A stretch of DNA of 64,000 bases from Trichinella spiralis (lineage: Eukaryota): positions 4,133,754-4,197,753 of the forward strand of contig NW_003526944.1 in the NCBI RefSeq assembly GCF_000181795.1. Direction: 5' to 3'. Position 1 is the first letter of the stretch, and the number at the start of each line of letters is the position of its first letter. The notes below the pieces were generated by a model. It searched no databases and was not told the origin of the DNA. It saw only the letters and a program-made list of their open reading frames with translations. Shown here one piece after another: positions 18,850 to 19,394 of this stretch. The position numbers were made by a program, and so were the translations under genes.

Positions 18850-19394
18850 AGGTGTGACGGCAAATCTGATGTCAATCATAGGCCAAGTGTCAGAGCCGGC
18901 GTAACAATAACACAAACGCATAGCGACGCTTACCGTTCCTCTTGGGGAGTAACGATCACCACTAGATTGGCACTGAAACAGAGTCTCAGCACTACGTCAA
19001 TTGCGAATTTGCATAACTGCCTCTAGGACAGATACGTCTTACGAATTCACATAGGTGTTGAAATCCCATTGCACAAGATTTCAAACAACGTCCATTTCCA
19101 CACAAATGGACAGGGTCATCTCTTTGAAACCGGTCTCTGGCCAGCACGGGACTAGGAGGCTCCGCCGAGGGAAGTCCCCGTTAACGGGCAGGAGGGCGGG
19201 GGGCGGCGCGGGGGCGGTCGGGCTGAAAAAAAACCTTGCTTGAGATCCCATTGCTGGGATCCGAGCAAGGCGGCAGGCCTCTGGTACCGCAACCGGGAGA
19301 GGAAGAGGTGAGCTTTGAAAATATGGACTTTGATCATTTGATACGGTTAGGGTCGCGTCGTGCAGTGTAACCCGTCGAACTCCTGCACACCACC
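18850..19394 (-). ncRNA. Large structured RNA; candidate telomerase RNA (H/ACA-type)
   Basis: GC-rich island of many helices. ACCCUAACC at 19353-19345. GCAGGAG/CUCCUGC closing helix. GGGGA/UCCCC stem followed by AGAGGA at 18942-18937. ACGGUAAG/UUUGCCGU stem followed by ACA at 18855-18853. Confidence 0.5.

What the first reader, a model, noticed from the sequence alone, without database searches (positions are those of the whole stretch)
18850..19394. Candidate intron-hosted telomerase RNA (about 545 nt, minus strand)
Seen in sequence: the only long GC-rich structured island in the left half, with motifs in the order expected of an animal telomerase RNA. (a) ACCCUAACC, 1.5 copies of the TTAGGG complement, about 40 nt from the 5' end (19353-19345). 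(b) A 5' helix GCAGGAG (19386-19380) with CUCCUGC (19194-19188), or the local GUGCAG/CUGCAC hairpin, as template boundary. (c) A possible pseudoknot of CCUCU/AGAGG plus CGGUUG/CGACCG. (d) GGGGA/UCCCC closing a ~230-nt branched domain that includes CUGUC-CUAGA-GGCAG, with U and G at loop positions 2 and 4 as in P6.1. (e) AGAGGA (H box, ANANNA), an 8-bp stem ACGGUAAG/UUUGCCGU with an internal pocket about 15 nt from ACA, then ACA-ccu. A GCAA tetraloop and several G-U-extended helices favour the minus strand. From memory: AAGAGGAACGG and GGCCUGCCGCCUU also occur in human TERC, C. elegans telomerase RNA was found inside an intron, and TTAGGG has been reported for Trichinella. Inference: this is a nematode telomerase RNA processed from the intron starting at 19781. 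Caveats: there is no clear U-A-U triplex tract, competing local hairpins can mask the H box, and some helices fold better on the plus strand.
Basis: partly seen in the sequence, partly recalled or inferred. Interest (0 to 1): 0.93.

Follow-up and report, generated by a model that had tools for sequence, protein, structure and literature searches.

The report
Multi-copy telomerase-like RNA in Trichinella worms
A DNA element present in dozens of copies in Trichinella worm genomes, and annotated there as small hypothetical proteins, is predicted to make a folded non-coding RNA that is likely (about even odds, untested) the worms' missing telomerase RNA, which would write the same chromosome-end repeat as their vertebrate hosts.

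Summary
The motifs are present at the stated coordinates. The window is Trichinella, most likely T. spiralis. The element is not single-copy: 143 of 150 public gene models gathered match it, 35 in one T. spiralis annotation set, others across the genus. The models use all three frames, so it is non-coding. Natural variants support a minus-strand RNA fold: two clear compensatory pair changes, a variable-length GNRA hairpin, and an H box and ACA hairpin kept in T. pseudospiralis and T. papuae. A 9-nt TTAGGG template plus H/ACA end in this order arose in 0 of 2000 shuffles. Against telomerase RNA: the copy number; an altered template in 16 of 26 T. pseudospiralis models; a pseudoknot at chance level; folds that bury the template; TTAGGG unseen in 9 of 12 published Trichinella read sets; contested TERT. 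Intron hosting is not shown. Verdict: a real multi-copy long H/ACA-type RNA family; telomerase RNA about 0.5. If right, it is the first nematode telomerase RNA outside Caenorhabditis that my searches found, and it would settle the Trichinella telomere repeat.

The parts
18709..19955 (-). Stretch with deep cover in RNA-like runs; candidate primary transcript of the repeated unit
   Evidence: X15, X17, X19 fall off at about 19955 where X11 (DNA?) goes on; low end about 18709-18770; run kinds are the tool's guess
19954..20011 (-). 58-nt GT-AG intron upstream of the unit, seen spliced
   Evidence: joint CT..AC in X15 and X19
19782..19826 (-). Short putative exon ending at the GTAAGT donor; poorly conserved in T. 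pseudospiralis
   Evidence: 43-44% identity for P0051; partly paralogous to window 1923-2041
18708..19781 (-). Putative 1074-nt host intron (GTAAGT ... TTTTCATTTAG); splicing not seen
   Evidence: no such joint listed
19500..19605 (-).
   Evidence: 85-95% amino-acid identity in T. pseudospiralis models in two frames
19360..19388 (-). P1.1-like helix GUGCAG/CUGCAC ending 6 nt before the template
   Evidence: pair probability 0.99-1.00 with 5' ends at or above 19430, 0.11-0.46 with shorter ones
19345..19353 (-). Putative 9-nt template, 1.5 copies of the TTAGGG complement
   Evidence: T-L-T in 84 of 102 models; altered in 16 of 26 T. pseudospiralis models
19215..19308 (-). Candidate pseudoknot region; 5' strand at 19295-19286 invariant, topology unproven, no U-A-U tract
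19234..19270 (-). Variable-length hairpin with GNRA loop; compensatory C-G to U-A at 19257/19248
   Evidence: P0139; shortened in P0023, P0024, P0027, P0040, P0041 and in an X15 loose end
18944..19180 (-). Multi-branched domain (candidate eCR4/5 equivalent); hairpin 18992-18970 with compensatory U-A to C-G at 18988/18974
18937..18942 (-). H box (ANANNA); changes only at an N position in T. pseudospiralis and T. papuae
   Evidence: P0048, P0124, P0130
18850..18936 (-). H/ACA 3' hairpin, ACA at 18855-18853 plus 3 nt
18811..18865 (.). 27-nt tandem duplication that includes the ACA end; sequence beyond ACA+3 is conserved to about 18770
   Evidence: P0123, P0124, P0130-P0132

Best explanation
This locus is one of dozens of DNA copies of a Trichinella-wide non-coding element that is predicted to yield a long H/ACA-type RNA, likely the telomerase RNA, whose 9-nt template would direct TTAGGG synthesis. 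Shown: multi-copy presence across the genus, non-coding conservation pattern, natural variants that keep minus-strand helices, H box and ACA. Weakly shown: transcription as a roughly 1.2-kb unit. Inferred: RNA polymerase II makes the 1.2-kb precursor; the dyskerin H/ACA complex binds the 3' hairpin and protects an end near 18850; the 5' part is trimmed or spliced away, freeing the template from the upstream strand that pairs with it; P1.1 sets the template boundary; the branched domain acts as an eCR4/5 equivalent for TERT; the copies spread by DNA-level duplication of a cassette of 2 kb or more, and some (template-altered ones) are variant or dead.
For: Order of parts matches non-vertebrate animal telomerase RNAs (template-adjacent P1.1, long stems instead of canonical CR4/5, H/ACA end; PMC8480181). 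Template plus H/ACA in order: 0 of 2000 shuffles. Template lies in the best-conserved block (0 differences in 208 nt for X15 contig 11 and in 175 nt for X19 contig 27, against 21 in 418 and 18 in 256 nt in neighbouring contigs; 31 of 34 residues identical in T. pseudospiralis P0047; split dated 22.6 Myr in PMC7846577). Compensatory changes 18988/18974 (both sites change in X15, X17, X19, neither in X11; gene models show U-A 4, U-G 1, C-G 9, C-A 0 of 14) and 19257/19248. H box and ACA hairpin kept at the deepest split. All 12 of 12 Trichinella read sets lack TTAGGC (max count 5.8) while TTAGGG tops 3 of 12; other clade I nematodes have TTAGGC. T. spiralis TERT with all 11 motifs is cited in PMC5405514. 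An 11-nt word at the H box and a 13-nt word after the template are shared, in the same order, with human TERC (chance of a 13-mer 0.004-0.016).
Against: At least 35 gene models in one T. spiralis set and 8 in one T. pseudospiralis isolate; dozens of telomerase RNA genes have no precedent that I know or that one search found. Template codons altered in 16 of 26 T. pseudospiralis models, including all 8 loci seen from isolate set T4E, and the common change would be a harmless G-U wobble in a rival helix with 19397-19392. Free folds pair the template for all six 5' ends tried; a forced telomerase-type fold costs 24-30 kcal/mol before pseudoknot energy, opening the template and forming H/ACA 12-16. 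Pseudoknot at chance level, no U-A-U tract; a T. britovi/T. murrelli/T8 subfamily breaks one pair of the first CCUCU/AGAGG register. No Rfam hit even at E 10. TTAGGG is absent from 9 of 12 read sets and was not separable from host DNA in the other 3. PMC10844300 infers telomerase loss in Trichinellidae, though its test also misses Trichuris muris, which has TTAGGC. Conservation and RNA-like cover run past ACA+3 and far upstream.
Confidence: 0.5

Rival explanations
1. A multi-copy long H/ACA RNA with no telomerase role (guide, scaRNA-like or scaffold RNA carried by a repeated cassette). The 9-mer is one strand of a 5' helix, not a template.
For: H/ACA end and helices supported by variants. The free fold explains the variants well: the T. 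pseudospiralis change in the 9-mer and the A-to-G change at 19280 would both be G-U wobbles. Multi-copy H/ACA-derived elements exist (snoRTEs, passage in PMC4233971). Introns far more conserved than exons is the snoRNA-host pattern.
Against: A TTAGGG 9-mer arises in only 29 of 2000 shuffles, any of six repeats within the first 120 nt in 18 of 2000; length of about 550 nt and the P1.1-template order fit telomerase RNA; no 3'-side pseudouridylation pocket in the local fold; no rRNA or snRNA target was tested.
Confidence: 0.3
2. A non-autonomous mobile element or repeated cassette whose structured transcript serves its own copying; H/ACA and template likenesses are incidental.
For: Dispersed copies on several long scaffolds, species-level subfamilies, flanks that are a patchwork of local repeats, a 27-nt tandem duplication over the ACA end, conservation beyond ACA+3.
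Against: Copies do not decay evenly: the GC-rich core has 0 differences where flanks have 5-7%. No terminal repeats bounding the unit, poly(A) tail, tRNA head, Pol III A/B boxes, hammerhead or HDV-like ribozyme pattern inside it. Shared flanks include a spliced intron, which points to DNA-level duplication.
Confidence: 0.15
3. A family of small protein-coding genes, as annotated in public Trichinella genomes.
For: 143 gene models exist, most in one frame.
Against: Models use all three minus frames and switch frame between copies; names are inconsistent (ribosomal protein, kinase, chelatase); no Pfam family above cut-off in 150 of 161 local ORFs scanned; changes follow base pairs, not codons.
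Confidence: 0.04

Closest known systems
Caenorhabditis telomerase RNA in nmy-2 intron 2 (PMC12921731; Takeda et al. 2025 known only through it)
   Same: Nematode; helix before a template near the 5' end; H/ACA 3' end; possibly intronic.
   Different: 327 nt against about 550; TTAGGC against TTAGGG template; reported at one intronic locus of a coding gene against dozens of copies in a non-coding cassette; splicing of the host intron not seen here.
Protostome (mollusc, annelid, brachiopod) telomerase RNAs (PMC8480181)
   Same: P1.1-type boundary, 8-9-nt class template for TTAGGG, long stems in place of canonical CR4/5, H/ACA domain.
   Different: Their pseudoknot is conserved; here it is at chance level and lacks a U-A-U tract. 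No multi-copy family mentioned in the passages read.
Human TERC
   Same: A 13-nt word after the template and an 11-nt word at the H box, in the same order; TTAGGG.
   Different: Template register differs; no Rfam match to any telomerase family; no P1-type boundary or CR4/5 support; H-box word differs by one letter in T. pseudospiralis.
snoRTE (H/ACA snoRNA-derived retroposons; passage in PMC4233971) and intron-borne repeat-derived H/ACA RNAs (AluACA, recalled)
   Same: H/ACA RNA in many genomic copies.
   Different: Much longer; no retroposon tail or target-site duplication seen; copies share kilobases of flank including an intron; core is under constraint.

Membership tests
Animal telomerase RNA | Template of 1.5-2 copies of the organism's telomere repeat complement | tested here: inconclusive
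   9-nt TTAGGG template present; the Trichinella repeat itself is undetermined in print
Animal telomerase RNA | Template invariant among functional homologues | tested here: inconclusive
   T-L-T in 84 of 102 models, 10 of 26 in T. pseudospiralis; amino acids fix only about 6 of 9 letters; which copies are functional is unknown
Animal telomerase RNA | Template single-stranded | tested here: inconclusive
   Predicted paired for 6 of 6 5' ends; opening it alone costs 3-5 kcal/mol; prediction only
Animal telomerase RNA | Template boundary helix (P1.1 or P1) | tested here: met
   6-bp helix ending 6 nt before the template; both strands read the same residues in T. pseudospiralis; one subfamily loses the outer pair (P0084, P0087)
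Animal telomerase RNA | P2b/P3 pseudoknot with base triples | tested here: inconclusive
   Candidate exists but 209 of 300 shuffles have one; no U-A-U tract; one subfamily breaks a pair; the Caenorhabditis consensus model lists no P3
Animal telomerase RNA | CR4/5 or eCR4/5 activating domain | not testable with these tools
   Branched domain with a covarying hairpin present; function needs reconstitution; conservation of the P6.1-like hairpin could not be read
Animal telomerase RNA | Binds TERT and directs repeat synthesis | not testable with these tools
   TERT presence in Trichinella is contested
Animal telomerase RNA | One or few gene copies (usual, recalled; not strictly defining) | tested here: not met
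   35 models in one T. spiralis set, 24 of them on four long scaffolds
Animal telomerase RNA | Match to an Rfam telomerase model | tested here: not met
   No hit at gathering score or E up to 10; profile searches also failed for nematodes in PMC8480181
Box H/ACA RNA | ANANNA hinge, 3' hairpin, ACA | tested here: met
   H box changes only at an N position and hairpin 5' changes improve pairing in T. pseudospiralis and T. papuae
Box H/ACA RNA | Mature 3' end 3 nt after ACA; dyskerin binding | not testable with these tools
   Only contigs were available; cover runs 80-140 nt beyond
Intron-processed RNA | Host intron is spliced | tested here: inconclusive
   Donor 19781 and acceptor 18708 present; no joint listed, contigs of X15, X17, X19 cross the donor unspliced; contigs drop rare forms
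SINE or snoRTE retroposon | Pol III head, LINE-like or poly(A) tail, target-site duplication | tested here: not met
   No tRNA, A/B box in the unit, tail or bounding repeats; one copy only examined at DNA level

The most novel reading that the evidence does not exclude
Trichinella runs its telomerase on a gene family of dozens of expressed RNA copies with template-variant subfamilies, and its switch from the nematode repeat TTAGGC to the host repeat TTAGGG came from capturing a vertebrate telomerase RNA while living inside host muscle cells, which would explain the two words shared in order with human TERC.
Probability: 0.05. Interest if true: 0.97.

Novelty: new variant of a known kind. Interest (0 to 1): 0.72.

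Why it matters
A 2026 paper states that the telomerase RNA gene is unknown in nematodes outside part of Caenorhabditis (PMC12921731), and two papers leave the Trichinella telomere open: repeat undetermined (PMC10760449) and telomerase inferred lost (PMC10844300). This element gives a direct test of both. If it is telomerase RNA, Trichinella has TTAGGG ends that were set aside as host contamination, and a telomerase RNA gene amplified to dozens of copies with template variants. If it is not, it is still a genus-wide, constrained, multi-copy long H/ACA-type RNA family that public annotations misread as over 140 small proteins.

Tried and rejected
No genome is held for this window, so copies could not be counted in DNA. 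Rfam: 0 hits at gathering score in 64 kb; at E up to 10 only ceN40, mir-9465 and snoR17 at far below cut-off. No RNA holder is on record; run kinds are guesses. Summed contig depth is not a copy number or expression level and was used only for where cover stops; absence of a 19782-to-18707 joint is weak. A read-based copy-number and allele check in DNA runs could not be obtained and stays open. Metagenome pattern scan: 40 loci, none matching beyond about 35 nt around the pattern. Viral contigs: 1 locus, 15 residues, taken as chance. Pfam on 150 of 161 ORFs of 38 aa or more in 17.7-33.1 kb: none above cut-off. No tRNA; no hammerhead, HDV-like, RNase P/MRP CR-V, 7SK or Pol III box pattern inside the unit (recalled consensus patterns). 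Long-range P1 GCAGGAG/CUCCUGC rejected in favour of P1.1. A third possible compensatory pair (18902/18880) sits in the MFE but not the centroid and its neighbour pair breaks, so it is not counted. The per-bin identity table mixes off-frame alignments and was not used. Earlier scan findings: none. Takeda et al. 2025 is not held. Paper searches listed no report of a Trichinella telomerase RNA or of this repeat; the library lacks most subscription journals, and older reports of 1.6-1.7-kb T. spiralis diagnostic repeats (recalled) could not be compared.

Full report
Setting. The window is animal DNA with myosin heavy chain, TOM20-like and TSC22-like frames in its right half (myosin and TOM20 names are my reading of the translations). 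The TSC22 frame matches only Trichinella proteins, 5 of 205 candidates, 90-100% identical. One T. spiralis gene model, P0007, reads the same residues as the window's frames at 19963-19874, 19826-19782 and 19383-19084 apart from predicted introns, so the window is most likely T. spiralis. The left 21 kb is a patchwork of local repeats. No genome was available.

The observation. Every motif quoted is at the stated place on the minus strand, in the most GC-rich bin of 128. Whole-region folding is not clearly better than shuffles (z -1.49 minus, -2.20 plus). A 9-nt template alone is weak evidence, since each of five other repeats has a 9-10-mer in the window. Template and H/ACA together are not: 29, 24 and 0 of 2000 shuffles have the TTAGGG 9-mer, the H/ACA-like hairpin, or a template followed by H/ACA (descriptor tuned with the candidate in view). 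The compact pseudoknot is chance-level, 209 of 300 shuffles. Rfam finds nothing.

It is a multi-copy family. The frame over 19410-19084 matched 48 of 61 candidates, all named Trichinella hypothetical proteins. Cluster look-ups and two further searches brought the set to 150 models, of which 143 match 18850-19394 at E up to 1e-4; all that carry a name are Trichinella (6 of 16 representatives were not looked up). Of 38 models I assigned to one T. spiralis annotation set, 35 match the element: 24 on four scaffolds of 1.2-7.6 Mb and 11 on contigs under 10 kb, which may be redundant (8 were assigned by species name and contig length, as no accession was shown). One T. pseudospiralis isolate set has 8 loci with the 5' core. 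T. britovi, nativa, murrelli, nelsoni, patagoniensis, papuae, T6 and T8 also have it. These are lower bounds, since only copies that received a gene model are seen. Linked matches run from at least 18331 to 20431, including an intron seen spliced, which points to DNA-level duplication of a cassette of 2 kb or more. Same-species DNA-like runs hold mostly 41-59% of the words, at best 80%, as expected if assemblies collapse paralogues; the differences are therefore best read as paralogue differences (inference).

It is non-coding and constrained. Models use all three minus frames (143, 28 and 18 alignments) and switch frames between copies. Against deep contigs of RNA-like runs the core shows 0 differences in 208 and 175 nt while neighbouring contigs show 21 in 418 and 18 in 256 (chance below 2e-4 at 5%). 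In T. pseudospiralis, which split about 22.6 Myr ago (PMC7846577 passage), the putative exons match at 43-44% but blocks inside the putative intron match at 85-95% (19605-19500) and 91% (19356-19255), and the 3' end to about 18770 at 64-81%.

It folds on the minus strand. Pair 18988/18974 changes from U-A to C-G in X15, X17 and X19, and at neither site in X11; 14 gene models show U-A 4, U-G 1, C-G 9 and never C-A, and the wobble intermediate fixes the strand. Pair 19257/19248 changes from C-G to U-A in T. pseudospiralis P0139, read from second codon positions. The hairpin 19270-19234 has a GCAA loop here, a five-pair stem with a GNAA loop in five models (inferred from residues) and almost nothing in one X15 loose end. 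The H box changes only at an N position in T. pseudospiralis and T. papuae (three frames: P0048, P0124, P0130). In the 3' hairpin, three inferred changes on the 5' strand in those species all improve pairing with the unchanged 3' strand (alignment by eye), and that upper stem starts 14 nt from the ACA. Against a simple picture: a britovi/murrelli/T8 subfamily breaks one pair of CCUCU/AGAGG and one pair of the variable hairpin, and the ACA end lies in a 27-nt tandem duplication.

Transcription and the intron. Three runs guessed to be RNA, from three studies, lose cover at about 19955 where a run guessed to be DNA goes on; two show a spliced 58-nt GT-AG intron just upstream; cover ends near 18709-18770. 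This is a weak hint of a 1.2-kb transcript. A donor at 19781 and a strong acceptor at 18708 bracket the element, and exons are less conserved than the intron, but no joint between them was listed and contigs cross the donor unspliced. Contigs cannot show RNA ends. No protein family marks a host gene. Intron hosting is open; I put it near 0.3.

Is it telomerase RNA? For: the order of parts fits protostome telomerase RNAs, which have P1.1, no canonical CR4/5 and an H/ACA end (PMC8480181, abstract, parts 2-3 of 7 and passages); the template sits in the best-conserved block and reads T-L-T in 84 of 102 models; all 12 Trichinella read sets lack TTAGGC while TTAGGG leads in 3 (PMC10760449 passages, supplement file 1 part 1 of 3 and table rows), whereas Trichuris, Soboliphyme, Romanomermis and Xiphinema (bioRxiv passages) have TTAGGC; two words match human TERC in order (passages of PMC12137546 and PMC12659060). 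Against: the copy number; altered template codons in 16 of 26 T. pseudospiralis models, the commonest of which would be a tolerated wobble in a helix with 19397-19392; all free folds pair the template and a full telomerase-type fold costs 24-30 kcal/mol before pseudoknot energy; no U-A-U tract; TTAGGG unseen in 9 of 12 read sets and not separable from host DNA in 3; TERT is cited as present (PMC5405514 passage citing Cai 2012, which I did not see; no Trichinella row in 11 of 18 supplement files read) but inferred lost in PMC10844300 (passages and supplement rows), whose test also scores Trichuris muris negative. Weighing these, telomerase RNA 0.5, other long H/ACA RNA 0.3, mobile-element RNA 0.15, coding family 0.04.

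Comparison and novelty. It works like an animal H/ACA-type telomerase RNA on paper; membership is unproven because template use, TERT binding and the organism's repeat could not be tested, and the pseudoknot test was inconclusive. PMC12921731 (parts 1-4 of 8 and passages) says the gene is unknown outside part of Caenorhabditis and does not mention Trichinella. Searches listed no report of this element; Takeda et al. 2025 and most subscription papers were not available, and its supplement or older work on T. spiralis diagnostic repeats (recalled) may bear on novelty. PMC9071541, PMC4233971 and PMC11892584 were seen as passages only.

Noticed in passing
window 19605-19500 (-): Conserved block upstream of the candidate with a 16-bp hairpin (19602-19535) followed by an ANANNA word and a Sm-site-like run at 19495; could be a second small RNA, a processing signal or a promoter element.
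   Followed up: partly
window 19705-19698 (-): TATA-like word about 300 nt upstream of the candidate; common in AT-rich DNA, so an independent promoter is possible but unsupported.
   Followed up: no
window 19240-19254 and 19058-19072: Two GCAA-loop hairpins share a 15-nt direct repeat (93%), suggesting an internal duplication.
   Followed up: no
window 19155-19186: The deep contigs of X15, X17 and X19 all carry a different loop here from the window and from most T. spiralis gene models, which may mean one or a few dominant expressed copies.
   Followed up: partly
proteins P0055-P0057, P0060-P0062, P0026, P0027, P0052, P0118: A second conserved segment sits next to the element at other loci, upstream or downstream, and is absent from this window; may be another repeated RNA or mark tandem arrays.
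   Followed up: no
protein P0152: In T. patagoniensis a copy is fused by the gene finder to a DNase II gene, so copies may lie in the expanded gene-family regions.
   Followed up: no
window 19374-19553: An X19 contig of 4067 nt and an X15 contig of 2657 nt share this stretch at about 90% and then run into unrelated sequence: partial copies that lack the template.
   Followed up: no
window 1-17650: Patchwork of local repeats with near-identical duplicates next to assembly gaps (11748-13263 with 16131-17650; 10664-11634 with 13603-14600; also 53048-53830 with 53843-54609), possibly assembly artefacts; 21-nt GC-rich tandem arrays at 378-478 and 15818-15918.
   Followed up: no
window 18457-18486 and 18616-18645: 30-nt inverted repeat, 97% complementary, just downstream of the unit.
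   Followed up: no
window 33100-33750 (-), 36083-46874 (-), 54780-63500 (+): TOM20-like exons, a TSC22/Bun-family gene and a muscle myosin heavy chain gene; ordinary. The Caenorhabditis telomerase RNA lies in a myosin gene (nmy-2), but this element is 35 kb from the myosin gene and on the other strand.
   Followed up: partly
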